DNA of 64,000 nucleotides from an uncultured Cellvibrionales bacterium (GCA_963933215.1 CAWVSB010000007.1:50773-114772); one strand, 5' to 3'. Shown: positions 28,253-49,137, numbered from the stretch's first letter. Notes: a model not told the origin generated them from the letters alone. Program-made: numbers and translations.

Positions 28253-28261
28253 TGTGGATAA
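28253..28261 (-). promoter_or_regulatory. Perfect DnaA box (TGTGGATAA, the complement of TTATCCACA) in the AT-rich spacer upstream of mnmG
   Basis: Read directly at 28253-28261. Imperfect boxes lie at 28176-28184 (ATTTACACA) and 28166-28174 (TTATCAACT). Confidence 0.6.
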
Positions 28262-28360
28262 CTATAGGGGAAAGCTGTGTTATTGCTGTAGAGATGCTCT
28301 TACTTAACGGTGCAAAAACTTGAAAGCACTTTTCACGCAAATACTAGAAATGAAAATTAC

Positions 28361-28398
28361 AAAAAAGCCCTATACAATAAATTCATTACTTAGGGCTT
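28361..28398 (-). terminator. Rho-independent terminator after the FG-GAP lipoprotein gene
   Basis: On the minus strand: stem AAGCCCTA, an 18-nt loop, stem TAGGGCTT, then T6. Begins 22 bp downstream of the stop codon at 28421-28423. Confidence 0.6.
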
Positions 28399-28420
28399 TA
28401 TTATTTCCATATTCTAAATA

Positions 28421-30256: not shown

Positions 30257-30323
30257 GAGTTTTCCAATATAGTTTAAAAAATATGGGTTGTATTGTTTCT
30301 AATTATACTAGTTAAAAGCGATA

Positions 30324-31703: not shown

Positions 31704-31732
31704 AACTCTAGCCTACCAGAACTTGTTAACAA

Positions 31733-33418
31733 CTATTGTGCAGCAGCCGCTGCGGCTTCAATTTGGCGAGTGATCATCCACTGCTGCAAAATTGACAAGA
31801 TGTTGTTCACACACCAATACAATACCAGGCCAGCTGGGAACCATAAAAAGAAGAAAGTAAAGAAGATTGGCATAATCTGCATAACCTTTGCTTGCATTGG
31901 ATCTGGTGGCGGTGGATTAAGTTTTTGCTGAATAAACATACTCACACCCATAATCAGCGGCAATATGTAGTATGGATCCATAGTTGACAGATCTTGTATC
32001 CAACCTAGCCATGGCGCATGACGTAACTCTACGCTTTCCATTAATACCCAATATAGCGATATAAACACAGGCATCTGGATAAGTATCGGTAGGCAGCCAC
32101 CAAGTGGATTTACTTTTTCTTTTTTGTATAACTCCATCATGGCTGCAGATTGCGCTTGCTTATCATCCGCATGGCGCTCTCGTATTTCAGTCATTTTGGG
32201 AGTGACCAAGCGCATTTTTGCCATTGAGCGATAACTGGCGGCGGACAAAGGATAGAACAGTAACTTAACAAACATGGTGAGGAAAATAATTGACCAACCC
32301 CAATTGCCAACATAACCATGGATAAAGGTCATAATCCAAAATAACGGCTGTGCAATCCACCACAACCATCCGTAATCGACAGTCAGTTCTAAGCCTAATG
32401 CGATTGCCTCTAGGCTTTCTTGATCTTTAGGGCCAGCATAAAACCGACTTTCAATAGTTTCTACGCTGTGTGGTGCAACCGTTACTGCGGGGCTGATATA
32501 ACGAATAAAATTGAAACCGTCACTGTTTACTTTGGTTGAATAAGCGTTGGTGACATCAACTGGTGGAATCCACGCTGAGATAAAATAATGCTGAACTATT
32601 GATAGCCAACCATTAGTGACACTTGCTTTAAACGGCTCATCTGCTAGATCAGAAAAAGTTGTTTTAATATAAGGTTTTTCTTCTGTGCGGGTAGCAACAC
32701 CTAAAAATGGTTGCATCCCCATGCCGGTGGTATCGGCTGCGGGGTCTTCGCTGCTGTCACGTTTTAGTTGAGCGTAGAAGTTGGCAGTCCATTGCTCATC
32801 GCTGTTGTTTTCAATAATATATTGTTGTGTGACTAAGTAACTGTTGGCAGTAAAAATAAAGCGCTTAGTAATATAAGCACCGTTGCTATCGGTAAACTTT
32901 AAATCAACATTTAAAGTTTCTCTGCCATTTAAATTATAGTCGCGAACAGCGCTGCTAAATAAAGGTTTACCATTTGCTGTGTCGGTGCCGTTAGGACCAA
33001 TTAACCCACTTTGGGCGATGTAGGTTCGACGTGAATTTTGCTCAAGAAGGACAAAGGGATTTTCTTTTTCGTCAAGTTTAGCTAAATGCTTTGGTAACAA
33101 GACACTTACAATATCGCCCCCGTTTGGGTCGATGCGCATTATTAAGGTGCCCGTTGTTACAGTAATTAAATTAGTACTAACCGGCGCTACCGTTGATTGG
33201 CTTGGCGCCACTATCGGTGCATTTAATACAGGCGTATCGCTATTACTGTTAGTTGCAATATCGCGGGGTACTTCGCCAGTATTTTGATAGCTCTCGATCG
33301 GCACTTGGTTAGCATCTAACAAAGCTTTATCGGCAGCTTTAAAATCAGTCCACTCGTTAACCAATATTAGTGAGACCGCAATAATGGCCCCGATAATGCT
33401 ATAACGGATCAGATCCAT
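31733..33418 (-). CDS. yidC: Membrane protein insertase YidC
   Basis: 561 aa with a large periplasmic domain and a conserved C-terminal 5-TM core ([16 protein letters not shown]). Confidence 0.95.
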
Positions 33419-33695
33419 GGGTATCTATACACCTATGCTTATGTTGATGTGAATATTCAGGTACTGGGTCGAGACCACCGTCATTAAATGGATGGCAACG
33501 CAGTAATCTTCGAAGGGTTAAATAACAGCCTTTTAAAAACCCAAAACGGCCGACTGCAGTTTGGGCATAAGAAGAACAGTTAGGGTAGAAGCGGCAATGG
33601 TTGCCTAGTAGCGGACTAATAAAGTAGCGATAAAATGCGAGCAGACACAATGCTACCTTAGCGGCTAGCCCAGGCTTGTCGGTTTTACTTAACAC
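33399..33695 (-). CDS. yidD: Membrane protein insertion efficiency factor YidD
   Basis: ORF 33399..33734 contains [18 protein letters not shown] and CHPF..GG.DPVP. The start is uncertain: GTG 33695 is chosen over ATG 33734, which would overlap rnpA by 46 bp. Confidence 0.8.
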
Positions 33696-34063
33696 ACCGA
33701 TTTCTCGGTGGCTCGTCGAATTAATCTTTGCCACTGTTTTTCCAGTATTCGATTAAAGCTAGGGTTATCTAAGCCTCCACATCCCGATCTAGCAAGCACT
33801 ACAATATCTAAGCTAGGTAAATTATCAGTTTGGAGTCTAAAGCTTTCTCGTATCTGTCGTTTCAGTCGATTTCTTGTTACAGCTAATTTGACATGTTTTT
33901 TAGCAATAACCAGCCCCAATCTAGATTGAGACTGTTGGTTAAAACGGGCAAGCAATAATAGCTCGGGACATGATGTCTTTACTTCGGCCGAAGAGAAGAC
34001 GAATTGAAAGTCTTTGGCTGTCAGTAGGCGTTTCGATCTAGCAAAATTAAGTCCCGTGACCAT
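33689..34063 (-). CDS. rnpA: RNase P protein component
   Basis: 124-aa basic protein containing [12 protein letters not shown], positioned between rpmH and yidD. Confidence 0.9.
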
Positions 34064-34091
34064 GCTCTAACCAGCCAGTTTTATGGCTTAA

Positions 34092-34226
34092 TTAGGCAGA
34101 AAGACGCTTGCGTCCTTTAGCTCGACGACGGTTAATTACCGCTTGTCCGCCTTTAGTGGCCATACGTGCACGGAAGCCGTGAGTACGTGCGCGCTTTAAT
34201 ACACTAGGTTGGAATGTTCTTTTCAT
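34092..34226 (-). CDS. rpmH: 50S ribosomal protein L34
   Basis: Not in the ORF track because it is under 60 aa. My manual translation gives [44 protein letters not shown] (44 aa plus TAA). Confidence 0.95.
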
Positions 34227-34393
34227 AGCTATTACTCGGTATTTGTCAGCATTACTTAGTGTAATACTAGCCTTAAAAAAATGAGCGCGAATTTTAGAGA
34301 ATTAACTACCAAATATCAATGCCCTTTTTTAATCTCTTGTCATGTCACTTCAGATACAAAGGATAATTAATACAAATTGCCCCTAGAAACAAC

Positions 34394-34402
34394 TTATACA
34401 CA
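34394..34402 (+). promoter_or_regulatory. DnaA box TTATACACA (perfect to TTATNCACA)
   Basis: Read directly. Embedded in the 16-bp direct repeat AACTTATACACAGGTT (34391-34406). Confidence 0.75.
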
Positions 34403-34415
34403 GGTTAAATTAAAC

Positions 34416-34424
34416 TTATACACA
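34416..34424 (+). promoter_or_regulatory. DnaA box TTATACACA (perfect to TTATNCACA)
   Basis: Read directly. This is the second copy of AACTTATACACAGGTT (34413-34428), 22 bp after the first. Confidence 0.75.
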
Positions 34425-34527
34425 GGTTTTTATAAGATAGGTTTTAGTAAATTTAAATAGCACTACCCCATTTTTATATTTTTTTAAGATACTGATTTAT
34501 ATGGAAATAAAATAAAAACAAAATATT

Positions 34528-34536
34528 TGTGGAAAA
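34528..34536 (-). promoter_or_regulatory. DnaA box, relaxed consensus (TGTGGAAAA, the complement of TTTTCCACA)
   Basis: Read directly. Fits TTWTNCACA. Confidence 0.55.
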
Positions 34537-34546
34537 CTTTTTAGGA

Positions 34547-34555
34547 TGTGGATAA
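34547..34555 (-). promoter_or_regulatory. Perfect DnaA box (TGTGGATAA, the complement of TTATCCACA)
   Basis: Read directly. Confidence 0.75.
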
Positions 34556-34698
34556 CCTACGTCATTCGGTCTTTTTGACCTTGTTTTTAACATTTTTTTA
34601 AAAGTCAGCGCAAATATCTTTATATTAAGTGCTACGGCTTTAATAAATATAAAAATATAAGTAAGGAGTGACATTAAGTCACATTAAAAGGGGTAGAC

Positions 34699-36162
34699 GT
34701 GTTACCACAAGCAGTTTGGACAAAATGTGTTGGTTATTTGCAAACTGAATTACCTGCGCAGCAATTTAATACCTGGATAAGGCCGCTAAGGGCTGATGCG
34801 AATGATTCGCAGTTGTTATTATTAGCACCGAATCGTTTTGTGAAAGACTGGGTGAGTGATAAGTTTTTGCCAAGAATCATTGAGCTGGTGATTGAGATAA
34901 GCGAGCGACGGGTGCAAAAGGTTGTCATTGATATTGGTTTACAACAAATTGCCGCGCCAGCCAGTAGTTTTGCTGATCCGGCCTCTCCCCATATTTTGGC
35001 GCATGAAAATATCATTAAAGATGTTCCAATTGACACTGGGTCTGTTAATCGGCCCGTAGTCGAATCACCATTGCTTAATATAGGCTCTGGCGGTATCCAA
35101 CCGTCTAGATCTGCTGCTAATACAGTCGGCGGTTTTAGGCACCAAAGTTCGCTAATGCCCGGTTATACTTTTAATAGTTTTGTAGAAGGAAAATCTAACC
35201 AGTTGGCGCGGGCGGCCGCTACCCAAGTATCACAGAATCCAGTTGGCGCCTACAATCCATTATTTATTTACGGTGGCGTTGGTTTGGGTAAAACTCATTT
35301 AATGCACGCGGTGGGTAATGCGTTACTTGAAAAAAAACCAGATGCTAAAATTGTTTATTTACACTCAGAGCGTTTTGTTGCTGACATGGTTAAAGCGTTA
35401 CAGTTAAATGCCATTAACGAGTTCAAACGCTACTATCGTAGTGTTGATGCGCTGTTGATTGATGATATTCAGTTTTTTGCTGGTAAAGAAAGATCGCAAG
35501 AAGAGTTTTTTCATACCTTTAATGCCTTGCTTGAAGGCGGCCAACAGATGATACTTACTTGTGATCGCTATCCGAAAGAAATTAACGGTTTAGAAGAGCG
35601 ATTAAAGTCGCGCTTTGGTTGGGGCTTAACCGTTGCTGTGGAGCCACCTGAGCTAGAAACACGGGTAGCTATATTAATGAAAAAAGCAGAGAAAGCGCGC
35701 ATTGATCTGCCGCCGGAAGCGGCTTTTTTCATTGCTCAGAAAGTTCGCTCGAATGTTCGTGAGTTAGAGGGTGCGCTAAAGAGAGTGATAGCGAGCGCTC
35801 ACTTTACTGGTAAAGTTATTGACGTAGATTTAATAAAAGAATCGCTTAAAGATTTATTAGCGCTGCAAGATAAGCAAGTCAGTATGGATAACATCAAGCG
35901 TATTGTTGCAGAATATTATAAAATTAAAGTGGCAGACTTATTATCGAAGAGACGCAATCGATCTGTGGCACGACCAAGACAAGTGGCGATGGCATTGGCG
36001 AAAGAGCTGACTAACCATAGTCTGCCAGAAATTGGTGATGGGTTTGGTGGTAGAGACCATACGACAGTATTACATGCCTGCCGTAAGATTAAAGAGTTGC
36101 GTGATACTAGTGCAGACATTAGAGAAGACTATAAAAATTTAATTAGAACATTAACAACCTGA
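34699..36162 (+). CDS. dnaA: Chromosomal replication initiator protein DnaA
   Basis: 487 aa with a GTG start after AAAAGGGG, Walker [11 protein letters not shown] and a C-terminal DNA-binding DHTTVLHA. Confidence 0.97.
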
Positions 36163-36210
36163 TAGACCTGCAAACCAAACACAACAATTGTTTTTAGGAA
36201 TGATAGAACT

Positions 36211-37311
36211 ATGAAATTCACTGTTACTAGGGATGCATTACTTAAGCCATTAAATCTTGTTGCTGGAGTGGTAGAGCGCAGACAAACCTTGCCAATTTTG
36301 GCCAATGTGTTGATTGGCGTGGAAGGTAATCAACTGACGTTAACGGGTACTGACCTTGAAGTCGAGTTACTCGGGAAGGTGAGTTTAGATGGCGTTACAG
36401 TCGATGGTGATATTACCGTTCCAGCGCGTAAGCTTTTAGATATTGTTAAGTCACTGCCTGACGACAGTGTAATTAGCGTTGAAGTAGAAGACCAGCGTGC
36501 GATTATTAAAAGTGGGCGCAGTCGGTTTACCCTTTCCACATTGCCCGCCAGTGAATTCCCAAATGTAGAACAAGGGTCAGCGACTCTAGAGTTTGATGTG
36601 TTACAAGGAAAGTTGAAAGGTCTTATCGACAAAACAGCATTTGCTATGGCTCAACAAGACGTGCGTTATTATTTAAATGGTATGCTGTGGGAAATCAAAG
36701 ACAGTGTGTTCAGAGTGGTGGCAACCGATGGTCATCGACTTGCGTTATCGACACTAGCTGGGATTACTACCAGCGAAGAGAAACAGGTTATTCTGCCACG
36801 TAAAGGCGTGCTAGAACTAAGTCGACTATTGATTGATGAGGCCGAGAGCATTCATTTGGCCTTTGGCGACAACCATTTACGGGCAACCACTCAGGCCTTT
36901 ACCTTTACCTCCAAATTGGTCGATGGTAAGTTTCCTGATTACGACCGCGTTCTGCCTAAAGGCAGTGATAAAGAAGTTGTAGCGCAGCGCGATATATTAA
37001 AGCAAGCTTTGGCTAGAGCGGCGATTTTGTCTAATGAAAAGTATCGCGGTATTCGTATGCAATTTAATGCCGGTGATTTGCGTATTGTTGCCAATAACCC
37101 AGAACAAGAAGAAGCTGAAGATGTTGTTGCTATCGAATACGATGGGGATACCTTAGAGATCGGTTTTAATGTTAGCTACCTGCTTGATATTATGAATGTG
37201 GTGTCTGGCCCTAAAGTTAAGTTCTCGTTGCTTGACGCTAATAGTAGTGCGCTGCTGGAAGACAATGACGACGGTAATTCGTTGTATGTAGTAATGCCGA
37301 TGAGGCTATAG
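36211..37311 (+). CDS. dnaN: DNA polymerase III beta sliding clamp
   Basis: 366 aa, starting MKFTVTRDALLKPL and ending MPMRL. Confidence 0.97.
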   Translation: MKFTVTRDALLKPLNLVAGVVERRQTLPILANVLIGVEGNQLTLTGTDLEVELLGKVSLDGVTVDGDITVPARKLLDIVKSLPDDSVISVEVEDQRAIIKSGRSRFTLSTLPASEFPNVEQGSATLEFDVLQGKLKGLIDKTAFAMAQQDVRYYLNGMLWEIKDSVFRVVATDGHRLALSTLAGITTSEEKQVILPRKGVLELSRLLIDEAESIHLAFGDNHLRATTQAFTFTSKLVDGKFPDYDRVLPKGSDKEVVAQRDILKQALARAAILSNEKYRGIRMQFNAGDLRIVANNPEQEEAEDVVAIEYDGDTLEIGFNVSYLLDIMNVVSGPKVKFSLLDANSSALLEDNDDGNSLYVVMPMRL

Positions 37312-37330
37312 GGGCTGTTTGCGATAGTAG

Positions 37331-38425
37331 ATGACTTATCTAAATCGTCTAAAGGTGACTGATGTCCGTAATATTCGTTCGGCCTCACTTTTGAAGTTTG
37401 CCCAAACTAACCTCATCCATGGTGCTAACGGCAGCGGTAAGACCACATTACTAGAGTGTATTAATATGCTGGGGTTGGGTCGTTCGTTTCGTGGTTTGCA
37501 GATGAAACCAGTGATTAATACTGAGGCTGAGCATTGTACTGTATTTGGTGAGTTGGCCGCGATTGGTGGCGGTGTAAGTCCGGTGGGTGTGGCTAAGTCT
37601 CGCAAAGGCGAAACTAGGTTAAAATTGAATGGTGAGTTGATAACCTCGGTTGCGCCGCTAGCTGAGTTATTGCCATTACAATTAATTAGTACCGATACCC
37701 ACCTACTACTATCAGGTTCTCCAAAGATACGTAGACAATATATTGACTGGGGTTTGTTCCATGTGGAACATAGTTTTTTATTTCATTGGAGGCGGCTACA
37801 GCAAGCATTAAAACAACGAAATTCTTTGCTTCGTCGTGGTAGAATAAACAGTGTAGACATTGACCCATGGGAGCTGCAGCTATCTGCCGCTTGTGACATT
37901 ATTCATGAGTTTAGATCTGCTTATATAGCGGCGCTTAATTCCGTCTTTAAAGACACGCTAGCGGCGCTGTATGATGAGCATGAAGACATTGAATTACAGT
38001 ACAGTTGTGGTTGGGACACTGATAAAGAGTATTCCCAGTATCTGATCGACAACCGTGAAAAAGATGCTCAGCGCGGTTTTACGCAGGCCGGAGCTCACCG
38101 GGCTGATTTAAAGGTTAAGGTGGGTAAACTAGCTGCAGCAGACGTGCTGTCGCGTGGTCAGCAAAAGTTATTAGTTGCAGCGTTGCGCTTATCTCAGGGT
38201 AAGTTACTGCAGCAGCAGACCGGTAGAATGGCTATTTATTTGGTAGATGACTTGCCTGCTGAACTTGATAAAACCCATCGGCAACGCTTTGTTAACGCTT
38301 TGTTTGAGACAGGTAGTCAAGTATTTATAACCTGTGTTGAGGCCGAAGAATTGATAACTGCATATATCGACAAAGAACAACCCGCTATGTTCCACGTGGA
38401 ACATGGTGAGGTAGAACAGCAATAA
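37331..38425 (+). CDS. recF: DNA replication and repair protein RecF
   Basis: 364 aa with Walker A GANGSGKTTLLE. Confidence 0.95.
   Translation: MTYLNRLKVTDVRNIRSASLLKFAQTNLIHGANGSGKTTLLECINMLGLGRSFRGLQMKPVINTEAEHCTVFGELAAIGGGVSPVGVAKSRKGETRLKLNGELITSVAPLAELLPLQLISTDTHLLLSGSPKIRRQYIDWGLFHVEHSFLFHWRRLQQALKQRNSLLRRGRINSVDIDPWELQLSAACDIIHEFRSAYIAALNSVFKDTLAALYDEHEDIELQYSCGWDTDKEYSQYLIDNREKDAQRGFTQAGAHRADLKVKVGKLAAADVLSRGQQKLLVAALRLSQGKLLQQQTGRMAIYLVDDLPAELDKTHRQRFVNALFETGSQVFITCVEAEELITAYIDKEQPAMFHVEHGEVEQQ
37755..37770. promoter_or_regulatory. parS: parS-like ParB binding site with one mismatch (TGTTCCATGTGGAACA)
   Basis: Read directly inside recF. Differs at one central position from the palindrome TGTTCCACGTGGAACA. 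Confidence 0.6.
38388..38403. promoter_or_regulatory. parS: Perfect palindromic parS ParB binding site (TGTTCCACGTGGAACA)
   Basis: Read directly near the recF 3-prime end. A 16-bp perfect palindrome matching the chromosomal parS consensus TGTTNCACGTGNAACA. Confidence 0.8.
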
Positions 38426-38457
38426 CACATAAAAATATGAGACCTAACGGGCAGTAG

Positions 38458-40911
<2,454 letters not shown>

Positions 40912-40930
40912 GCTTTAGTGGCATAGTTAG

Positions 40931-40961
40931 AGGCGCCCTATCACTAGCGGCGCCTTTTTTG
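40931..40961 (+). terminator. Rho-independent terminator after gyrB
   Basis: AGGCGCC (40931-37), an 11-nt loop, GGCGCCT (40949-55), then T6. Confidence 0.75.
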
Positions 40962-40989
40962 TATCAATTGCTTAGCAGTAAGGAACAAG

Positions 40990-41580
40990 ATGGCAGTTTT
41001 TATTGCGATGTGTGCTTACTCGCTCAGTATGTCTATTTCCCCTGGGCCGGTTAACTTGGTTGCGTTAACCTCCGGTTTAAATAAGGGCTTTCGCCGTGCG
41101 ATACCGTTTGTATCTGGCGCCGCAATTGGCTTTGCATTGCTGCTACTAACGGTTGGACTAGGGGTAGGAATGGTAACTACAAGCTTGCCATTATTTTTAG
41201 CAATATTGAGTTATAGCGGCTCGGCCTTTATTTTTTATATGGGTCTCAACATTGCAACAGCCGATCCAGTAATTAAGCAAACAAATGGAACATCGTCGTC
41301 GTTTATACATGGCTTTGTTTTGCAATGGCTAAACCCTAAAGCCTGGATCGCCAGTATTTCAGGTATTGGAGCATTTGAGATTGAAGCGACTCATCACCTA
41401 TTTGAATTTGTAGCGATTTATTTCTTGATCTGTTATGCCAGCATTGCTTGTTGGGCCCTCGTTGGCCATAAAATGAATTTGATATTGAGTGAGCCGAAAG
41501 CACTTAAAATATTTAACCTAGTAATGGGGGGTCTACTGATGATGGTGGCAGTTTATTTATTATTAATGCAGCTCATGTAG
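40990..41580 (+). CDS. LysE/RhtB family amino-acid efflux protein
   Basis: 196-aa six-TM protein with an N-terminal SPGPVN motif typical of the LysE superfamily. Confidence 0.75.
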   Translation: MAVFIAMCAYSLSMSISPGPVNLVALTSGLNKGFRRAIPFVSGAAIGFALLLLTVGLGVGMVTTSLPLFLAILSYSGSAFIFYMGLNIATADPVIKQTNGTSSSFIHGFVLQWLNPKAWIASISGIGAFEIEATHHLFEFVAIYFLICYASIACWALVGHKMNLILSEPKALKIFNLVMGGLLMMVAVYLLLMQLM

Positions 41581-42376: not shown

Positions 42377-43552
42377 ATGGTTCCAGTGGTACTGGCATCA
42401 ATTTACCTTTTATTTGGCATCTATCATCTTTATCTTTACCGCCGGAATAAAGAATTTCCAGAATATCTCTGGGTTGGTTTATTCACTATAAGCCTATCAA
42501 TCTATACAGTTTTGATTAGCCATGTAGGAGACTTATTACCAATCAACAGTGCTCTCAAGGTCAAGATAGAATATTCACTTATTTTTGCCCTACCTATAAT
42601 GGGCATATCGTTTGTCACTAATTTAATGCGGTGCACAGTTAATAGATTTGTTAAGTTTTATCAATATTCTTTTCTGGTTTTCATTTTTTTGTTACTAGTC
42701 GATATAGAACTATATGATAAATCATCATTAGTCTTTCCTTGGCAAGTTTGGTTAGCGCCGGGTATTGTGGTTAGCTTGTTATATGTTATTAAGCTTGCAA
42801 TCAATAATAATCAAGAAGCTAAAACCCTTGTCATTGGCTTACTTATTTTTTCGGCTACTGTCATTAGCGATGGACTAGTTGTTAACGGAGTTATAGAGCT
42901 GCCGAGGCTGACATCCTTAGGGTTTTTGTTTGTTGTTATTGGGATGGCGTCTTCCCTGTCGAATAGATTTATTTTGTCACACGCCAACCTAGAGGATGCT
43001 GTTAAAGAACGAACACAAGCACTGCAAAAAATGAACGCCGAACTAGATTCAATGGCACATATCGATCCGCTTACCAATATCTACAACCGTCGATCTTTTG
43101 AAGATACATTTAACCGTTTGGTAAATACTAAGAGTAAAGGTGAACACTGTTATTGGCTTGCATTGCTGGATATTGACAACTTTAAGGAAATTAACGACTC
43201 CTATGGCCACAATATTGGAGATCTTGTTTTAGTCACACTAGCCAATATTATTAAACAAAAGCTAGATAAAAACGAGTTACTAGGCAGGTGGGGTGGCGAG
43301 GAATATATTTTATTATTAGAGCAAGACAATAAAAAACTAGCCCAAATAATTTTAGAAAGTATTAGACACGATGTTGAAACTCTAGTTATAGAATCTGATA
43401 TAGGACCAATTAAAGTCACAGTGAGTATAGGTGTAATAAAATATCAACATCAATCACTGAGCACTAGTATTAAAAATGCAGATAAAGCTTTGTACCAAGC
43501 AAAGCTCGACGGTAAAAATAAAATTGAATTTATTACCGCCGAACAAGACTAA
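42377..43552 (+). CDS. C-terminal fragment: 7TM (7TMR-DISM_7TM) plus GGDEF domain (GGEEY variant)
   Basis: 391 aa with about seven TM helices followed by DPLTNIYNRRSF...RWGGEEYILLL...ADKALYQAKLDGKN. Confidence 0.75.
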   Translation: MVPVVLASIYLLFGIYHLYLYRRNKEFPEYLWVGLFTISLSIYTVLISHVGDLLPINSALKVKIEYSLIFALPIMGISFVTNLMRCTVNRFVKFYQYSFLVFIFLLLVDIELYDKSSLVFPWQVWLAPGIVVSLLYVIKLAINNNQEAKTLVIGLLIFSATVISDGLVVNGVIELPRLTSLGFLFVVIGMASSLSNRFILSHANLEDAVKERTQALQKMNAELDSMAHIDPLTNIYNRRSFEDTFNRLVNTKSKGEHCYWLALLDIDNFKEINDSYGHNIGDLVLVTLANIIKQKLDKNELLGRWGGEEYILLLEQDNKKLAQIILESIRHDVETLVIESDIGPIKVTVSIGVIKYQHQSLSTSIKNADKALYQAKLDGKNKIEFITAEQD

Positions 43553-44193
43553 TCTTTATTATCGCCAACTAATAATGTTGGAATACCTAAGTTGTGGCTT
43601 TTAATAGTAGCGACTAAAGTATTGCGCTTCATCCCTGATTTTATATCACTGATATCGACCTTGCCTGCCCGTAAATATCGATGGTACTCATTGATATCCT
43701 CGACTGCCAAACCTAAGCCCCAAAACCCATCTTCGTGCTGGTCTTTATTCTCATATTCGCCTACTTCAAGCAGCAAGCCATCTAAAGGATAGAAAGATAG
43801 TTCAGCATTAGTCTCACCCAAAGTAATCGTATTTTTAAGCTGCAAGTTTAAAGGCGGAGCAGCTAACTTTCCACGCATTTGCTGCGGGGAGTTAGTCATA
43901 TAAACCACCATATTGATACCTACGTCAGTAGTATGTTTTTGCTCTGAAGGCGGACAAATTTGAAACTCAGCAATCGGTGAGTTTTGGCCTTCATCCCCAG
44001 CTAAATTAATTTTAGCAATACGAGCGGCAATAACCGTCGTTTGTTTCAACCAAAGATCTACATTTTTAAGTGCCAATAAATAAACGTCATCGCTGAATTT
44101 AGCGGCGCCACAGTTAAACAAATACTGATATTCCTCAACGGCAGTTAAGGCATTAGGGACTTCAATTACAATACTGACACAACGACGATTCAT
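43549..44193 (-). CDS. Hypothetical protein (possible glyoxalase/VOC-like fold)
   Basis: 214-aa ORF starting 8 bp downstream of the BASS gene. The C-terminal GLGLAVEDINEYHRYLRAGKV resembles VOC modules. The assignment is weak. Confidence 0.35.
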   Translation of the reverse strand: MNRRCVSIVIEVPNALTAVEEYQYLFNCGAAKFSDDVYLLALKNVDLWLKQTTVIAARIAKINLAGDEGQNSPIAEFQICPPSEQKHTTDVGINMVVYMTNSPQQMRGKLAAPPLNLQLKNTITLGETNAELSFYPLDGLLLEVGEYENKDQHEDGFWGLGLAVEDINEYHRYLRAGKVDISDIKSGMKRNTLVATIKSHNLGIPTLLVGDNKD

Positions 44194-45149: not shown

Positions 45150-45647
45150 TTTTGCTGCATAGAGATATTAATTGATACGTATTATGCGCTAATTTTTATC
45201 GCTAGCTGATGATTAATGTCAGCGGCTAAACCGTTACTATTTTATTAACGATTAATACTGATGGCCTATTATGTTCAGCTACTGCAGTTGCGTTTTTAAT
45301 ACATAGTCTTTGCGGGCCAGTCATAACCCGTACTGGCTGTGTGACCACGTATCCTTTAGCATAATGAAAACTATCAAGATTGAGAAAGGTAGCGCCCATG
45401 AAAGCCGCATTAGCTAAAAAATAGCCCAAATTATGGTCGCTAAATAACACTTGGTGGTGAAGTTCCGGTTAATGTAAGTTGAATAAACTTAATTCGTTAG
45501 CGCCAGCATATGCCTTGTTTCACGGGTAATAGTGGTGCATAAATTAACTAAAAGAGTGTTAGTAGAGGTGGTTTGTTAGGCATGGCTATTGTTCTGTTGT
45601 AAGGCTTCGCCACAGCAGACTACGGTCGAGTATCACCAACAGGGCCT

Positions 45648-45680
45648 AAAAACAGCGGCAGTTTAAAAAAACTGCCGCTG
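45648..45680 (-). terminator. Rho-independent terminator after the TonB-dependent receptor gene
   Basis: On the minus strand: CAGCGGCAGT, an 8-nt loop, ACTGCCGCTG, then T5. The stem spans 45653-45662 and 45671-45680. Confidence 0.8.
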
Positions 45681-45689
45681 ATTGTTTAC

Positions 45690-47804
45690 TTAAAAGCTAA
45701 TTCTAACCCCAGCGACAATAGATCGCCCGGCTTCTGGCGCTTGGTCTCGTAAAACCGACACACTATTGCGAATTTCTTCGTCAGTCATATTTTTCACTTT
45801 TAAGAATACCAAAGCGTTTTGTCCGTCTTGCTTGCCAAAGCGGTAATCCATACCAGCATCCCAGCGGGTATAGCCATCAGTTTTGTTTTCAAACTCTCCT
45901 GGGTTGTCTTGGTCGGCGGCATTGAGTACTGAAAGGTAAGAGCCAAAAGCACCATTCTGATAACTTAGCTCTGAGCCAAACCGTAATGGCGGCAATAAAG
46001 GCACGTCCCCGCTGCTATCTAGCTCACCGGTTATAGCGTCACCAAATACGCGTAGTTCAACATCGCCACCCAATGCTTGGCCTAGTGCTGTGGTTACATC
46101 AAACTCTACACCATAAAATTTCGCATCTTCTTGGCGGAAGAAAAACACATCTGTTTCATCTTGTTCCATATTGCCATTAGCTAAATAGATGTAATCACTG
46201 AAGTCGTTGTAGTAAAACGTCAAGTAAGCATCAACCGTGTCACCATGGTAATCCAATGACAAATCTAGGTTATTCGATTGTTCATTAGATAAGTTACTGT
46301 CGCCTACTTCAATCCTGTTAGTTGCCGCATGCACAACATAGTCGCCTAAAGCATTGGTATTATTGGAATATAACTCTTCCACTACCGGCGCTCGTTCTGA
46401 CGAAGACAGTGCGGCACCAAAATGCCAGTTTTGTGAAAGTGTCCAACTACCGGCAACCGATGCACTAAAACTGTTAAACGACTCATCGCTACCAACATCG
46501 GCATCGTAATCATCAACGTCATAGCGTAAACCGAATTCATAAATGGCATCGTTATGGTGAAAATCTTCCACAATAAACACGCCATAGCTCTGGGTGTTAG
46601 TAGCCGGAATGAATGCTTCTTCGCCTACTGCGGCAAAGTCAGAATCTTCAAACTGTAAGCCGAATGCACCTACAAAGCCGTTGATATCACCATGAACAAG
46701 TTCTAAGCGGCCTTCCATGCTTTCGTTGGTAAATTTGGTACCTACTTCGCCATTACCTTCTATTTCTCGGTGTTGATAATCGTTGTAGGTTAGTGCAACC
46801 CGCATTTCATCAATGAAACCATCGATGTTGGTTAAGCCGCCACGAAGATCATAACGGGTTTGCTCGACATCAATGCGGATGTTTTCCTCGCCCCCTTCTT
46901 CATGCCCCTCGCCCTCATGCCCCTCGCCCTCATGTTCGTCCTCATCGTGATGTTCCTCATCTTCGTGCTCATCTTCATCATGATCTTCGTCTTCATCATC
47001 GTGATGGCCATGAGTGCCGGCAGGAATACCATAATTATTGGATAGCTCGCTAACAGCTAAACCAAAAAAGCCATTATCACCGACAAAACTGGCACCAAAA
47101 GTGAATGTGTCCATATCGGAGTCGGTGTTTTCAATCACATCTTTTTTACCTTCGGGGGTATCGAAGGCAGGGTTAGTAGCATAGCCAGGAATATTTATGT
47201 CATTGCTGTCGCGTTTTACGCCGTCAAGGTGGAAGGCAAAAGGACCACTACCACCTTCTATTTTTAATACCGCCGTAGTCTCATCATTCACATCCCCATA
47301 GCGAACTTCGCCAGCCCCGGTAAGGCCTTCAATTTGCTTAGTAGGAATTCGATTATCTATTACATTCACCACACCGCCGATGGCGCCGCCGCCGTATAAT
47401 AGCGTTGATGGCCCGCGAAGTACTTCTACCGATTCTGCCAACACAGGTTCAACACTCACCGCATGGTCAGCACTGTTATTGGAAGCATCACCGCTACCGG
47501 TACCATTTTGCAGTACAGAGACACGCGGTCCTTGTTGGCCACGGATAACAGGTTGTCCGACAGAGGGACCAAATGATGCATTAGCAATACCAGGCATACT
47601 GCCCAAGGTGTCACCAATAGAGTTGGTAGATAGGTTACGTAGTTCTTCACCGCTAACAACAGTAACGGGTAAAGCTGTTTCAGCTTGGGTTTTGTGTAGA
47701 ACGCCACTAACGATAATGTGTTCTAGTTGATTTTTTGCATAAACATTATTTGTAGATACAGCAGCGCATGCCACTGCTAGGCATATAGATTTACGAGCAA
47801 ACAT
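45690..47804 (-). CDS. TonB-dependent receptor with a His/Asp/Glu-rich insert (ZnuD-like metal receptor candidate)
   Basis: 704 aa with a signal peptide, a plug domain (SADHAVSVEP...VEVLRGPSTLLYGGGAIGGVVNVIDNRIP), a C-terminal F, and an AAGAGG RBS. Insert: GTHGHHDDEDEDHDEDEHEDEEHHDEDEHEGEGHEGEGHEEGGEE. Confidence 0.85.
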   Translation of the reverse strand: MFARKSICLAVACAAVSTNNVYAKNQLEHIIVSGVLHKTQAETALPVTVVSGEELRNLSTNSIGDTLGSMPGIANASFGPSVGQPVIRGQQGPRVSVLQNGTGSGDASNNSADHAVSVEPVLAESVEVLRGPSTLLYGGGAIGGVVNVIDNRIPTKQIEGLTGAGEVRYGDVNDETTAVLKIEGGSGPFAFHLDGVKRDSNDINIPGYATNPAFDTPEGKKDVIENTDSDMDTFTFGASFVGDNGFFGLAVSELSNNYGIPAGTHGHHDDEDEDHDEDEHEDEEHHDEDEHEGEGHEGEGHEEGGEENIRIDVEQTRYDLRGGLTNIDGFIDEMRVALTYNDYQHREIEGNGEVGTKFTNESMEGRLELVHGDINGFVGAFGLQFEDSDFAAVGEEAFIPATNTQSYGVFIVEDFHHNDAIYEFGLRYDVDDYDADVGSDESFNSFSASVAGSWTLSQNWHFGAALSSSERAPVVEELYSNNTNALGDYVVHAATNRIEVGDSNLSNEQSNNLDLSLDYHGDTVDAYLTFYYNDFSDYIYLANGNMEQDETDVFFFRQEDAKFYGVEFDVTTALGQALGGDVELRVFGDAITGELDSSGDVPLLPPLRFGSELSYQNGAFGSYLSVLNAADQDNPGEFENKTDGYTRWDAGMDYRFGKQDGQNALVFLKVKNMTDEEIRNSVSVLRDQAPEAGRSIVAGVRISF
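46884..47012 (-). repeat. Low-complexity His/Asp/Glu-coding tract, including a perfect 15-bp tandem duplication (46901-46930)
   Basis: CATGCCCCTCGCCCT occurs twice back to back. The surrounding sequence is CAT/CTC/TTC/GTC-rich on the plus strand. Confidence 0.9.
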
Positions 47805-47850
47805 AAGAAACCTCTTAAATTAAACAATAAAAAGAATGAATATTGAAAAA

Positions 47851-48141
47851 CTAAGAGATGCTAGGCGGGGCCCGAGATAAATAGATATTAGTAGATAGGT
47901 AGGTAACATGCTCACCGCTAACACGAGAAAAAGAGGTGCTAGTGGTAATAGATAGATCAAAATGAAACTCAGCGTTTATAGCTTGTGCTGTATGGCCGTA
48001 CACACAAACAACACAATGCCGCTGGTCACTGCTGTTGTCGTGCTCATGGCTAACTTCCCCAACGCTGGTAAGTAGCGTAGTGAGGGCAAGCAAGCCAATT
48101 AATAATATCGACCGTAAGTTCATGGTCGCGATCGTAGTCAT
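47851..48141 (-). CDS. Small secreted His/Cys-containing protein (HCxxC; DUF2946-like, tentative)
   Basis: ORF 47851..48159 with possible starts at TTG 48159, ATG 48141 or ATG 48123. Signal peptide MNLRSILLIGLLALTTLLTSVG is followed by SHEHD...RHCVVCVYGH. Lies 46 bp upstream of the receptor gene. Confidence 0.55.
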   Translation of the reverse strand: MTTIATMNLRSILLIGLLALTTLLTSVGEVSHEHDNSSDQRHCVVCVYGHTAQAINAEFHFDLSITTSTSFSRVSGEHVTYLSTNIYLSRAPPSIS

Positions 48142-48155
48142 AAAGAATGACAAAA

Positions 48156-48605
48156 TCAATAATTATATGTTGTTAGTTGTTGGCGCAAGGCCTCAACCCG
48201 CTTAGCATTTACCCCCATATCACCAATGCCAAGGCGCGATGAAGAGCGCACATGAATAAGCTGTTGTTGATTGATAAACAGTAATTGCAGGTCATCTTTA
48301 AATCCCAAGGTTGGTGTTGAGACCACAACGTGTAAAAAATTAGCGTCGTCAATCATCAGCACCCACCGCGCTTGGTTGCCAATCCATTGCTTTAATTCTA
48401 GCCACTGCTTTTGTGTGCTGGGCAATGGCTTGACATAGGATGAAGCGCTGTCATTTACACTGCTTGCACAATTAGGAAAGCTACCACAGGGAGCTACGTT
48501 TTCTGCCGCTGTCGGTTGTGTCGGCGGGCTTGTACAGGCACAAAGTAATAATGCTGCAGCTATTATTGCCGCACAAGTAATCGGTTGACGAACTAGATGC
48601 TGCAT
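48156..48605 (-). CDS. DUF1499 family lipoprotein
   Basis: 149 aa with the lipobox LLCAC, plus PNCASS, GFKDDL, VRSSSRLGIGDMGVNAKR, which match my recollection of the DUF1499 pattern. Confidence 0.7.
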   Translation of the reverse strand: MQHLVRQPITCAAIIAAALLLCACTSPPTQPTAAENVAPCGSFPNCASSVNDSASSYVKPLPSTQKQWLELKQWIGNQARWVLMIDDANFLHVVVSTPTLGFKDDLQLLFINQQQLIHVRSSSRLGIGDMGVNAKRVEALRQQLTTYNY

Positions 48606-48723
48606 CGTGACTTTCCTTGTGATAGCTTTTAACTATGACTAAATAGAAATAATATATTTTATTTATGTGTCTGCGTGCTTGATACTCACTTCATTCAAGC
48701 AATAATCACATTTGGAGGCTCTT

Positions 48724-49137
48724 ATGACAACTAGTATCAATGTACGTAATTACATGAATTTAAGACCAACAAAAGTAGTAAGCACTACCACCTTGGGAGA
48801 GCTTACCAAAATATTGGCTGATAACCATGTTAATGGTGCGCCGGTGGTTAACAGCAACAACGAAATAATTGGCTTTGTCTCAGAGCAAGACTGTATCAAG
48901 CAGTTGCTATTAGGCAGTTATCACTGTGATCAACCAGCTATAGTTGAAGATGTTATGAAGCGTGACGTAGTGAGCGTAAAGCCTGATGACAGCATTATCG
49001 ACTTGGCTGAAAAAATGGGAGATCACCAGCCGAAAACCTACCCAGTGACTGAAAACGGTAAGTTGGTAGGCGTATTGACTCGCCAACACGTGTTAGCAGG
49101 TTTAGAACAAAATCAACAACATTGCGGTGCTTGGTAG
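48724..49137 (+). CDS. CBS-pair domain protein
   Basis: ORF 48712..49137. The ATG at 48724 lies 5 nt after GGAGG. Two CBS motifs are present ([19 protein letters not shown] and [17 protein letters not shown]). Confidence 0.75.

What the first reader, a model, noticed from the sequence alone, without database searches (positions are those of the whole stretch)
45690..48605. Candidate metal-piracy operon: DUF1499 lipoprotein, small HCxxC secreted protein, and a TonB receptor with a 43-residue His/Asp/Glu loop
Seen: three co-oriented genes lie almost end to end. The DUF1499 stop is at 48156 and the small ORF begins at 48159, 48141 or 48123. The receptor starts 46 bp after the small ORF behind an AAGAGG RBS, and a strong terminator follows it. 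The receptor carries GTHGHHDDEDEDHDEDEHEDEEHHDEDEHEGEGHEGEGHEEGGEE after the plug and first barrel strands. The small protein has a signal peptide, SHEHD and RHCVVCVYGH. Established: His/Asp-rich surface loops are the hallmark of ZnuD-type zinc receptors, and small CxxC proteins (DUF2946-type) accompany Cu/Zn TonB receptors. DUF1499 has no known function. Inference: this is a Zn or Cu (or other divalent metal) scavenging module in which DUF1499 and the HCxxC protein could be periplasmic or outer-membrane accessory factors. I could not recognise a Zur or Fur box by eye in 48606-48711 or 47805-47850, so its regulation is unknown. This is the best candidate in the window for an undescribed functional unit.
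Basis: partly seen in the sequence, partly recalled or inferred. Interest (0 to 1): 0.6.

Follow-up and report, generated by a model that had tools for sequence, protein, structure and literature searches.

The report
Stalling leader peptide gating a zinc-type receptor
The small "secreted CxxC protein" is most likely a ribosome-stalling leader peptide that switches on translation of the ZnuD-type (zinc-type) outer-membrane metal receptor gene behind it, a variant of a copper switch described in 2022, while the DUF1499 gene is just a neighbour.

Summary
The three minus-strand genes exist as described: DUF1499 (48605-48156), a small ORF (48123/48141/48159-47851) and a TonB-dependent receptor (47804-45690) followed by a terminator.

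The receptor is a ZnuD-family transporter. It keeps all four ZnuD zinc ligands. Its 45-residue His/Asp/Glu insert sits in extracellular loop 3.

The small ORF is not an accessory protein. It has every hallmark of a CruR/DUF2946-type arrest-peptide leader: an export helix, CxxC, 43 unconserved residues, then RAPP three codons before the stop.

A leader of this kind precedes the receptor in 74 of 78 assessable genomes. DUF1499 and every other neighbour are not conserved with the pair.

Differences from published CruR:
- It is a sub-Pfam subfamily with a near-invariant HxH before the CxxC.
- Its partner is a ZnuD-type receptor, not CrtA or OprC.
- The spacer is short, about 40 nt.
- The leader's last codons and stop codon pair with the receptor's Shine-Dalgarno (SD) sequence. 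That arm lies inside the footprint of a ribosome stalled at RAPP.

Distant ZnuD homologues carry Zur boxes and no leader. This clade has the leader and no Zur box.

Verdict: a new variant of a known mechanism. Zinc sensing is plausible but unproven.

The parts
45690..47804 (-). ZnuD-family TonB-dependent receptor gene (704 aa): signal peptide, plug, 22-strand barrel.
   Evidence: Pfam Plug and TonB_dep_Rec_b-barrel. NCBIfam Zn_piracy_ZnuD 425.8 bits over the full length. PDB ZnuD 4RDR E 4.6e-63. AF2 model with Foldseek top hits ZnuD at E 1e-37, against OprC at 1e-24.
46884..47018 (-). 45-residue His/Asp/Glu insert (residues 263-307) in extracellular loop 3.
   Evidence: Composition E17 H10 D9 G8 T1. 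It aligns with ZnuD loop-3 clusters HSHEYDDCHAD and HDDDNAHAHTH. In the model it is disordered and lies between strands 5 and 6 of 22. Its length varies from 20 to 55 residues across the family.
47463..47468 (-). Codons for D113-H114, equivalent to ZnuD plug-apex zinc ligands D99-H100.
   Evidence: HMMER alignment to 4RDR, with ZnuD numbering from PMC4557270. Invariant in alignments A2 and A5.
46764..46766 (-). Codon for E347, equivalent to ZnuD zinc ligand E340.
46329..46331 (-). Codon for H492, equivalent to ZnuD zinc ligand H499.
47851..48123 (-). Leader ORF (CruR-like arrest peptide), 90 aa from ATG 48123. Alternative starts at 48141 (96 aa) and 48159 (TTG, 102 aa).
   Evidence: Conservation starts at MNLRS. 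The relative L086 is called from the equivalent start. A homologous leader precedes the receptor in 74 of 78 assessable genome loci.
48052..48117 (-). N-terminal hydrophobic export helix of the leader (residues 3-24).
   Evidence: It is the only confident element of the AF2 model. A hydrophobic N-terminus is conserved in alignment A3. No dedicated signal-peptide predictor was available.
48040..48048 (-). HEH (HxH) motif, specific to this subfamily.
   Evidence: In the 45-sequence alignment A7, the first His is invariant and the second is present in at least 90% of sequences. The motif is not described in the DUF2946 logo (PMC9426467).
48004..48015 (-). CVVC (CxxC) candidate metal-sensing motif.
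   Evidence: The first Cys is invariant and the second is present in at least 90% of sequences. It is the Cu-sensing motif in B. pertussis CruR.
47863..47874 (-). RAPP ribosome-arrest motif, 43 residues after CxxC and 3 codons before the stop.
   Evidence: Across 68 leaders the spacing is 41-44 residues and the tail is 3-4 residues. RAPP and RGPP are experimentally shown arrest motifs, and CruR stalls with Pro3 in the P site (PMC12992588).
47851..47859 (-). Anti-Shine-Dalgarno arm AUCUCUUAG (Ile-Ser-stop of the leader).
   Evidence: MFE and centroid folds. Across the family, the nucleotides that pair with the SD lie at +11 to +15 from the P-site codon.
47810..47818 (-). Shine-Dalgarno arm UUAAGAGGU of the receptor gene, paired with the leader's last codons.
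   Evidence: Compensatory variants occur in L086, L087 and L088. The covariance model hits only leader-receptor junctions.
45653..45680 (-). Intrinsic terminator ending the unit.
   Evidence: 12-bp stem with 7 GC pairs, followed by TTTTT.
48156..48605 (-). DUF1499 gene (probable lipoprotein). An upstream neighbour that is possibly co-transcribed, but not a conserved part of the unit.
   Evidence: PF07386. Adjacent only in L001, L002 and L086, which share the whole neighbourhood. Absent from all other loci.
48702..48730 (-). Only sigma-70-like promoter match upstream of the three genes (TTGTCA-17-GATTAT). Weak evidence.
   Evidence: Consensus scan. The number of matches in the region is not above that of shuffled sequence.

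Best explanation
The functional unit is a two-gene cassette: a leader ORF plus a ZnuD-family TonB-dependent receptor.

Receptor. It imports a divalent metal, most likely Zn2+. A flexible His/Asp/Glu 'fishing' loop (extracellular loop 3) would feed a buried Asp-His-Glu-His site.

Leader. It is a CruR-like nascent-chain sensor. Its export helix, HxH and CxxC have emerged from the ribosome when the ribosome reaches RAPP and stalls there, with Pro3 in the P site.

Switch, ON state. The stalled ribosome physically covers the next ~15 nt, which are the leader's last three codons and its stop. In free mRNA these nucleotides pair with the receptor's Shine-Dalgarno sequence. Stalling therefore unmasks the SD, and the receptor is translated. 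The stalled ribosome would also keep Rho off the C-rich leader RNA.

Switch, OFF state. When the metal is plentiful it binds the nascent HxH/CxxC and the arrest is relieved. The ribosome terminates, the hairpin re-forms, the SD is hidden, and the untranslated receptor message is silenced. Rho termination probably contributes.

DUF1499 is a lineage-specific upstream neighbour, not a component.

Status of each step:
- Shown in silico: receptor family and ligand conservation; loop position; leader motifs and spacing; pair conservation; the SD-sequestering hairpin and its position relative to the stall site; absence of a Zur box.
- Taken from published experiments on relatives: RAPP/RGPP arrest; CxxC-dependent relief of arrest.
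- Inferred: the sign of regulation, the identity of the metal, and Rho involvement.
For: Receptor:
- ZnuD HMM 425.8 bits, E 3.5e-127. PDB ZnuD E 4.6e-63. Foldseek ZnuD 1e-37 against OprC 1e-24.
- D113, H114, E347 and H492 correspond to ZnuD D99, H100, E340 and H499. They are invariant in 20 family members and in Zur-box-bearing homologues.
- No Cys occurs in any mature receptor.
- The insert lies in loop 3.

Leader:
- Present in 74 of 78 assessable genome loci, plus L003, L004 and L086-L088.
- Only H, C, C, R and PP are conserved, and mean column identity is 23%.
- CxxC to R[AG]PP spacing is 41-44 residues and the tail is 3-4 residues.
- 30 of 62 leaders hit DUF2946 weakly, while no other Pfam family hits more than one.
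- The leader is unstructured beyond its signal helix.
- Published CruR and RAPP/RGPP arrest data.

Hairpin:
- SD unpaired probability is 0.06 in natural sequences, 0.28 after shuffling (p 2.5e-11), and 0.28 after synonymous recoding (p 4e-12).
- It rises to 0.38 when the stalled-ribosome footprint is imposed.
- 90% of the nucleotides that pair with the SD lie at +0 to +16 from the P-site codon.
- The stop codon covaries with its partner: UGA/UCA 26, UAA/UUA 8.
- Different but complementary arms occur in the window, L086, L087 and L088.
- The covariance model finds 15 of 15 hits at junctions in 585 kb of sequence (all but the window's own copy left out of the model). On those hits, 86.7% of cells are paired and covariation is 0.31 against 0.16 for shuffles.

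Context:
- No other conserved neighbour.
- No Zur box here. Zur boxes without a leader occur in the Acinetobacter, Xanthomonas and Novosphingobium homologues (the Burkholderia locus L091 has only a distant Zur-like match and is not counted).
- The leader RNA is C-rich and G-poor relative to the receptor gene in all 69 loci.
Against: - Nothing here is experimental for this clade.
- The window's leader gets no Pfam hit on its own. The family link is transitive.
- For the window alone, the hairpin is only modestly better than chance: z -1.97, and 22% of synonymous recodings sequester the SD as well.
- RNAalifold found no consensus structure on the MAFFT alignment. The structural alignment A6 is fitted to the model.
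- With the footprint imposed, SD accessibility rises only to 0.38.
- In B. pertussis the characterised mechanism is Rho termination across a 162-nt spacer, and the sensed metal is copper. Zn had only a moderate effect there.
- In the window the leader is not the first gene. DUF1499 ends 32 nt (or fewer) upstream, and no separate promoter was found.
- The leader has no recognisable Shine-Dalgarno sequence.
Confidence: 0.68

Rival explanations
1. Canonical copper system. The leader is an ordinary CruR that senses Cu(I) through CxxC, and the receptor imports copper (ionic or chelated). The ZnuD resemblance reflects fold and a generic His/acid metal site, not zinc specificity.
For: - CruR is copper-specific in B. 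pertussis, and DUF2946 leaders overwhelmingly head copper-related operons.
- CxxC is a classic Cu(I) motif.
- His/Asp/Glu sites also bind Cu(II).
- There is no Zur box.
Against: - The receptor is not OprC-type: TIGR01778 scores 58.8 bits against a cut-off of 472, on the plug only. It has no Cys anywhere in the mature protein.
- It is not CrtA-like in context. There is no PepSY_TM, PCuAC, ScoI, YcnI or CopC neighbour in 84 loci.
- All four ZnuD zinc ligands are kept.
- Homologues sharing these ligands carry Zur boxes.
- The leader has an extra near-invariant HxH, giving a His2Cys2 set.
Confidence: 0.25
2. DUF1499 and the small CxxC protein are exported accessory or metallochaperone proteins that work with the receptor as a three-component scavenging module.
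For: - The three genes are tightly packed and co-oriented.
- Both small proteins have export signals.
- The HxH and CxxC motifs could bind metal.
Against: - DUF1499 is absent from every locus outside the window's own syntenic clade.
- Between its motifs the leader is unconserved (23% identity), and it is predicted disordered.
- Its C-terminus is an established ribosome-arrest motif at a fixed distance from CxxC.
- Its last codons are selected for RNA pairing with the SD.
- B. pertussis CruR was undetectable as a protein.
Confidence: 0.06
3. Rho-only attenuation, as in B. pertussis. The hairpin is incidental. Control is purely transcriptional polarity through a rut site in the C-rich leader.
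For: - The leader RNA is C-rich and G-poor in all 69 loci.
- The published CruR mechanism is Rho-dependent.
Against: - Synonymous-codon choice in the leader tail is specifically biased towards SD pairing.
- The partner nucleotides sit exactly in the stalled-ribosome footprint.
- The spacer is about 40 nt rather than 162 nt.
- The two mechanisms are compatible and probably act together.
Confidence: 0.1

Closest known systems
CruR (DUF2946, PF11162) leader of cruR-crtA(bfrG)-bp2921 in Bordetella pertussis (Roy et al., mBio 2022, PMC9426467)
   Same: - A small exported ORF lies directly upstream of a TonB-dependent transporter.
- CxxC, then a fixed-length unconserved linker, then RAPP three residues before the stop.
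- The leader RNA is C-rich.
- No metal-regulator operator.
- Presumed logic: stall means ON, metal relieves the stall and means OFF.
   Different: - The window's leader gets no hit to the Pfam model, and its relatives stay below the threshold.
- The linker is 42-43 residues rather than 45.
- There is an added near-invariant HxH.
- The spacer is about 40 nt rather than 162 nt.
- An SD-sequestering hairpin is built from the leader's last codons.
- The partner receptor is ZnuD-type, not CrtA.
- No PepSY_TM gene follows.
- The sensed metal is possibly zinc.
CutF-cutO of Rhodobacter capsulatus (Ozturk et al., mBio 2023, PMC9973294; bioRxiv 10.1101/2025.02.05.636593)
   Same: - A DUF2946-like exported leader whose C-terminal proline motif stalls the ribosome.
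[quoted passage not shown]
   Different: - CutF has CxxxC and PPP.
- In CutF, copper enhances stalling.
- Its target is a detoxifying multicopper oxidase that is induced by metal, not an uptake receptor that is expected to be repressed by metal.
ZnuD of Neisseria meningitidis (Calmettes et al., Nat Commun 2015, PMC4557270) and Zur-regulated ZnuD homologues
   Same: - Full-length homology.
- The same four zinc ligands.
- His/Asp/Glu clusters on extracellular loop 3.
   Different: - About 25% identity, far below the NCBIfam ZnuD cut-off.
- The loop is much more acidic and has no Cys.
- There is no Zur box. Control is by a leader peptide instead.
- The organism is a free-living marine gammaproteobacterium, so 'piracy' from host proteins is not implied.
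SecM-secA and RAPP arrest peptides ApdA/ApdP (PMC12992588; PMC10987492)
   Same: - An RAPP/RAGP-type arrest at the C-terminus of an exported leader.
- The stalled ribosome opens a hairpin that hides the downstream SD.
   Different: - Those leaders monitor protein export and are released by pulling force.
- This leader carries metal-ligand motifs and precedes a metal receptor.

Membership tests
CruR / DUF2946 (PF11162) | Match to the Pfam model at or above the gathering score (23.7 bits). | tested here: not met
   The window leader has no hit even at E up to 10. 30 of 62 homologous leaders hit at E < 1, best 2.4e-4. A profile search found none of 55 relatives carrying a precomputed PF11162 annotation.
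CruR / DUF2946 (PF11162) | N-terminal export signal or N-in transmembrane helix. | tested here: met
   The hydrophobic N-terminus is conserved. The AF2 model has a confident helix at residues 3-24. No SignalP-type tool was available.
CruR / DUF2946 (PF11162) | Conserved CXXC motif. | tested here: met
   CVVC at residues 37-40. The first Cys is invariant and the second is present in at least 90% of sequences.
CruR / DUF2946 (PF11162) | [quoted passage not shown] | tested here: met
   RAPPSIS-stop in the window. Across the family the motif is RAPP (34) or RGPP (31), with a tail of 3-4 residues in 67 of 72 leaders.
CruR / DUF2946 (PF11162) | CXXC-RAPP spacing of 45 residues, conserved to within 1-2. 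| tested here: inconclusive
   The window has 43. The family ranges from 41 to 44, with modes at 42 and 43. The spacing is as tightly fixed as in CruR but shifted by 2-3 residues.
CruR / DUF2946 (PF11162) | First gene of an operon that contains a TonB-dependent transporter. | tested here: inconclusive
   The leader directly precedes the receptor in 74 of 78 loci. In the window, however, DUF1499 ends 15-32 nt upstream on the same strand, and no separate promoter was found.
CruR / DUF2946 (PF11162) | Long intergenic region and Rho-dependent termination before the transporter gene. | tested here: not met
   The spacer is 46 nt in the window and the family median is 39-45 nt. Rho action is not testable here. 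A C>G rut-like composition is present.
CruR / DUF2946 (PF11162) | Copper-specific response. | not testable with these tools
   This needs expression assays under Cu or Zn limitation and excess.
ZnuD-type zinc TonB-dependent receptor | Plug plus 22-strand barrel, with full-length similarity to ZnuD. | tested here: met
ZnuD-type zinc TonB-dependent receptor | NCBIfam NF038289 curated cut-off (950 bits). | tested here: not met
   425.8 bits. The model is an 'exception'-type model tuned to close orthologues.
ZnuD-type zinc TonB-dependent receptor | High-affinity site residues Asp99, His100, Glu340 and His499. | tested here: met
   D113, H114, E347 and H492 align to them and are invariant in A2 and A5.
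ZnuD-type zinc TonB-dependent receptor | His/Asp/Glu-rich clusters on extracellular loop 3. | tested here: met
   The insert at residues 263-307 aligns to ZnuD clusters 1 and 2, and lies between strands 5 and 6 in the model.
ZnuD-type zinc TonB-dependent receptor | Zur-box-controlled promoter. | tested here: not met
   No enrichment of GTTATNNNATAAC upstream of the leaders: 8 of 71 against a background of 0.10. None near the window locus. Positive controls were found in L089, L090 and L092.
ZnuD-type zinc TonB-dependent receptor | Zinc transport. | not testable with these tools
   This needs uptake, growth or ICP-MS assays.
OprC / NosA copper receptor (TIGR01778) | Model cut-off, and a Cys/Met/His copper site. 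The site is recalled from Bhamidimarri et al. 2021, not read here. | tested here: not met
   58.8 bits against a cut-off of 472, on the plug only. The PDB OprC match covers only the plug. There is no Cys in the mature receptor in 20 of 20 family members.
CrtA copper TBDT family (PMC12914433) | Followed by a PepSY_TM gene in more than 75% of loci; belongs to a separate sequence cluster. | tested here: not met
   No conserved downstream gene in 84 loci. The Pfam-annotated loci L001, L003, L004 and L086-L088 show no PepSY. No direct sequence comparison with CrtA was made.
SD-unmasking arrest leaders (SecM / CutF type) | A stem-loop that hides the downstream SD and is opened by the ribosome stalled on the leader. 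| tested here: met
   Met in silico only.
DUF1499 (PF07386) | Pfam gathering score. | tested here: met
   87.6 bits against a cut-off of 22.6.

The most novel reading that the evidence does not exclude
This would be the first zinc-sensing nascent-chain arrest peptide. In it, a CruR-like leader has acquired an HxH next to its CxxC, giving a His2Cys2 site. Across marine Cellvibrionales it would have replaced the Zur repressor as the controller of a ZnuD-type zinc receptor. It would act mainly by masking and unmasking the Shine-Dalgarno sequence from inside the stalled ribosome's footprint.
Probability: 0.4. Interest if true: 0.75.

Novelty: new variant of a known kind. Interest (0 to 1): 0.6.

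Why it matters
Metal-sensing arrest peptides are known so far only for copper (CruR, CutF). The authors of the CruR paper noted that no post-transcriptional sensor is known for zinc.

This cassette pairs a CruR-like leader with a receptor that keeps the ZnuD zinc site. Distant relatives of that receptor are Zur-controlled. It is therefore a concrete, testable candidate for a zinc-responsive leader peptide.

It also looks like a natural experiment in regulatory replacement: a repressor operator in some lineages, a nascent-chain sensor in others.

The subfamily falls below the Pfam threshold and is often not even called as a gene. It is therefore likely missing from existing Pfam-based censuses of such leaders.

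The clade carrying it includes Halieaceae, Spongiibacteraceae, Pseudohongiellaceae and SAR86, marine gammaproteobacterial lineages, so the mechanism may bear on how they acquire trace metals in the sea.

Tried and rejected
1. Pfam, NCBIfam and PDB scans of the small ORF alone gave nothing.
2. The word-indexed homologue search found only 4 close relatives. The exhaustive profile search found mostly low-complexity false positives plus two genuine distant leaders, P0130 and P0132.
3. Searching for a Zur box, a Fur box and any shared k-mer upstream of the leaders showed no enrichment. A transcription-factor operator was rejected as the conserved control element, within the limits of these simple scans.
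4. A search for conserved neighbours in 84 loci found none beyond the pair. This rejects PepSY_TM, TonB/ExbBD, ZnuABC or DUF1499 as parts of the unit.
5. RNAalifold on the MAFFT alignment of junctions returned no consensus structure, because the register shifts and the loop is not homologous. Per-sequence thermodynamics, a stop-anchored tabulation and a covariance model were used instead.
6. Rfam gave only a spurious sub-threshold hit on the terminator.
7. An intrinsic attenuator in the spacer was considered and dropped. The hairpin is followed by a U-rich stretch only in the AT-rich window clade.
8. The 540-nt gap downstream of the terminator (45150-45690) is conserved only between very close relatives, and nothing was found in it.
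9. A second RSPP-terminal ORF (11871-12086 +) overlaps a longer minus-strand ORF and was taken as chance.
The receptor model is only moderate, with mean pLDDT 66 and a poor plug, so only strand order and the fold match were used.

Full report
OBSERVATION

- A DUF1499 protein at 48605-48156 (PF07386, E 1e-24).
- A small ORF ending at 47851, with possible starts at 48159, 48141 or 48123.
- A 704-aa TonB-dependent receptor at 47804-45690 (Plug plus barrel).

AAGAGG lies 7 nt before the receptor's ATG. A strong terminator sits at 45680-45653.

The acidic/His stretch is 45 residues, not 43: residues 263-307, composition E17 H10 D9 G8 T1.

THE RECEPTOR

The best family model is NCBIfam Zn_piracy_ZnuD: 425.8 bits, E 3.5e-127, end to end. 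This is well below the model's 950-bit cut-off for close orthologues. The copper-receptor model TIGR01778 matches only the plug, at 58.8 bits.

Among solved structures only ZnuD matches over the full length (4RDR, E 4.6e-63). OprC matches only the plug.

An AlphaFold model was built with 20 sequences. Its mean pLDDT is 66; the barrel is good and the plug is poor. Foldseek ranks the ZnuD entries first at E 1e-37 and TM 0.76-0.87. OprC and haem receptors follow at about 1e-24.

The ZnuD paper names Asp99, His100, Glu340 and His499 as the buried high-affinity zinc site. It also names two His/Asp/Glu clusters on extracellular loop 3 (PMC4557270). After correcting the 14-residue offset between chain and paper numbering, these four residues align with D113, H114, E347 and H492 of the window protein. 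All four are invariant in 20 family members. They are also invariant in three distant homologues.

The insert aligns with both loop-3 clusters. In the model it is a disordered stretch between strands 245-260 and 309-325, which are strands 5 and 6 of 22, so it is an extracellular loop.

No mature receptor of the family contains a cysteine. An OprC-like thiolate/thioether copper site is therefore excluded.

THE SMALL ORF

On its own the ORF matches nothing, and only four near-identical proteins were found. The receptor, by contrast, has thousands of relatives in marine gammaproteobacteria.

In Oceanicoccus and Dasania the receptors are 55% identical to the window's. [quoted passage not shown]

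A scan of one genome per species returned 80 receptor loci, from Halieaceae, Spongiibacteraceae, Pseudohongiellaceae, SAR86, Zhongshania, Teredinibacter and others. A leader of this kind is present in 74 of the 78 loci that have enough upstream sequence.

The 62-sequence alignment has a mean column identity of only 23%. Invariant or near-invariant positions are one His, the two Cys, and Arg-x-Pro-Pro. In an independent 45-sequence set, both His of an HxH are as conserved as the Cys.

The distance from CxxC to R[AG]PP is 41-44 residues, with modes at 42 and 43; the window has 43. The tail after PP is 3-4 residues. The motif is RAPP in 34 leaders and RGPP in 31.

Thirty of the 62 leaders hit Pfam DUF2946 weakly (best E 2.4e-4), and no other family hits more than one. 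None of 55 database relatives carries a precomputed DUF2946 annotation.

AlphaFold gives only the N-terminal helix with confidence. Residues 31-80 are below pLDDT 50.

WHAT DUF2946 IS

Roy et al. showed that the B. pertussis DUF2946 protein CruR is an upstream ORF.
- Its RAPP motif, three residues before the stop, stalls the ribosome.
- Stalling is needed for expression of the downstream TonB-dependent transporter.
- The CxxC, 45 residues upstream, confers copper-dependent relief of the arrest.
- Relief leads to Rho-dependent termination in a 162-nt spacer (PMC9426467).

Later work showed several further points.
- RAPP and RGPP are versatile arrest motifs that resist EF-P.
- These motifs are enriched near the C-terminus of small exported proteins upstream of TonB receptors.
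- CruR stalls in vitro with Pro3 in the P site and Pro4 in the A site (PMC12992588).

The related CutF leader works by melting a stem-loop that hides the Shine-Dalgarno sequence of the next gene (PMC9973294).

The BfrG/CrtA transporter is a separate family that is usually followed by a PepSY_TM gene (PMC12914433).

WHAT IS DIFFERENT HERE

1. Partner. The receptor is ZnuD-type, and nothing else is conserved around the pair. The next most common neighbour occurs in 15 of 84 loci. None of the copper-associated neighbours listed by Roy et al. is conserved with the pair: no other gene cluster occurs in more than 15 of 84 loci, and none appears in the six loci that have Pfam-annotated gene calls.

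2. Spacer. It is short: 46 nt in the window, and mostly 31-57 nt in the family.

3. Hairpin in the window. The minimum-energy and centroid folds pair AUCUCUUAG (Ile-Ser-stop of the leader) with UUAAGAGGU (the receptor's Shine-Dalgarno).

4. Hairpin across 69 loci.
   - The SD core is almost fully paired in free RNA: mean unpaired probability 0.06.
   - After shuffling the leader's 3' end it is 0.28 (p 2.5e-11).
   - After recoding the leader's last 10 codons synonymously with local codon usage it is 0.28 (p 4e-12). In 64% of loci, no more than 5% of recodings do as well as the natural sequence.
   - 90% of the nucleotides that pair with the SD lie at +0 to +16 from the first base of the P-site proline codon, with a median range of +11 to +15. 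That is inside the mRNA channel of a ribosome stalled at R[AG]PP.
   - Imposing that footprint raises SD accessibility to 0.38.

5. Covariation.
   - The stop codon covaries with its partner: UGA/UCA 26, UAA/UUA 8, UAG/UUA 3.
   - The window's nearest independent relatives use different but complementary arms. L086 has GUUAUUUCCU/GGGAAUAAC, L087 has UUUUCUUAAAA/UUUUAAGGAA, and L088 has CUCCUCC/GAGGA.
   - On the MAFFT alignment, 76.7% of cells pair, against 38-55% when the partner is slid.
   - A covariance model was run over 585 kb of sequence, of which all but the window's own copy had not been used to build it. It gave 15 hits, all at leader-receptor junctions. On those hits 86.7% of cells pair, and the covariation score is 0.31 against 0.16 for shuffles, with 0 of 500 shuffles as high. 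That alignment is fitted to the model.
   - RNAalifold on the MAFFT alignment found nothing.

6. Composition. The leader's 3' 190 nt is C-rich and G-poor relative to the receptor gene in all 69 loci. This is the rut-like signature described for cruR, so Rho polarity probably reinforces the translational switch.

DUF1499

DUF1499 is adjacent only in L001/L002 (receptor 93-98% identical) and L086 (76%). In those loci the whole neighbourhood is syntenic: beta-lactamase, AhpC, CBS, then the SBF transporter and a 214-aa ORF. It is absent at 59% and 55% receptor identity and from all 80 genome loci. Shared ancestry explains the adjacency.

In the window DUF1499 may be co-transcribed with the cassette. 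Its stop lies 15-32 nt before the leader's start, and the only promoter-like match lies upstream of it.

WHICH METAL

The Zur pattern GTTATNNNATAAC is not enriched upstream of the leaders: 8 of 71 loci, against a background rate of 0.10 per region. No other shared k-mer was found. The window locus has no Zur or Fur box.

The same pattern worked as a positive control on distant homologues of the receptor (31-36% identical, same four ligands).
- It found a perfect box, AAATGTTATAATATAACAAAA, 46 nt before the Acinetobacter baumannii gene.
- It found Zur-like palindromes before the Xanthomonas and Novosphingobium genes.
- In Burkholderia the only Zur-like match lies about 350 nt upstream of the matched region, that sequence was not included in the ligand alignment, and the locus is not counted as a control.
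- None of these four loci has a leader ORF.

The receptor family is therefore zinc-regulated elsewhere. In this clade the operator appears to have been replaced by a leader that carries a His2Cys2 ligand set.

That favours zinc, but it does not prove it. CruR is copper-specific in Bordetella, with only a moderate zinc effect. CxxC is a classic Cu(I) motif. A His/acid site can also bind Cu(II). My split is roughly 55% zinc, 25-30% copper, and the rest another divalent metal.

VERDICT

The cassette is a leader-controlled ZnuD-type receptor. The mechanism belongs to a kind described in 2022-2025, so it is not categorically new. All mechanistic steps for this clade are inferred from sequence and from experiments on relatives.

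Noticed in passing
window 28000-41000: The window spans what looks like the chromosomal origin region. ORFs of dnaA, dnaN, recF and gyrB size and order lie on the + strand (34699-40911). They match the Pfam-annotated synteny of relative L001. The cumulative GC-skew minimum is at about 32-34 kb. The receptor cassette lies about 5-10 kb from it.
   Followed up: partly
L089:2440-2500; L090:2190-2230; L092:2430-2460; L091:~2150: Distant ZnuD-type homologues carry Zur-box palindromes upstream and have no leader ORF. A. baumannii has a perfect AAATGTTATAATATAACAAAA at -46, and X. sacchari and Novosphingobium have Zur-like palindromes. Burkholderia has only a Zur-like match about 350 nt upstream. This suggests the leader and the Zur box are alternative controls of one receptor family.
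   Followed up: partly
L006, L014, L022, L047, L048, L065, L084 (leader ORFs just upstream of the receptor): Seven of about 74 leaders keep only the first cysteine (CxxS/Y/G/A/W instead of CxxC). They retain the HxH, the spacing and R[AG]PP. The second Cys is therefore dispensable in some lineages.
   Followed up: no
alignment A2 columns 237-280 (window residues ~209-220; nt ~47145-47180): Several family members (for example P0106, P0112 and P0047) have a second long His/Asp/Glu insert in the preceding extracellular loop. The window protein has only a short loop there.
   Followed up: no
L088:2672-2941; L005:7606-7878: The leader ORF is often not called as a gene in public assemblies. Where it is called, it is annotated as 'hypothetical protein'. 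Annotation-based censuses would miss it.
   Followed up: partly
window 47851-48040 and the equivalent part of 68 other loci: The leader's 3' 190 nt is C-rich and G-poor relative to the receptor gene in every locus (mean C 0.34, G 0.24, against C 0.26, G 0.30). This is a Rho-utilisation-like composition.
   Followed up: partly
window 43549-44193 (-): A 214-aa ORF downstream of the SBF-family transporter has no Pfam or NCBIfam match. It is conserved at the same place in relatives L001 and L086.
   Followed up: no
window 45150-45690: A gap of about 540 nt without a convincing gene lies between the receptor terminator and the SBF transporter gene. It is nearly identical in the close relative L001, largely different in L086, and has no Rfam match.
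   Followed up: partly
window 46900-47006: The DNA encoding the His/Asp/Glu loop is a degenerate tandem array with periods of 12, 15 and 18 nt. This fits the loop's length variation (20-55 residues) among relatives.
   Followed up: partly
PLSDB records NZ_CP104448.1, NZ_CP091013.1 and others: The 'plasmids' collection contains chromosome-sized records (A. baumannii about 4 Mb, Burkholderia about 3 Mb) labelled as plasmids, with almost no gene table.
   Followed up: no
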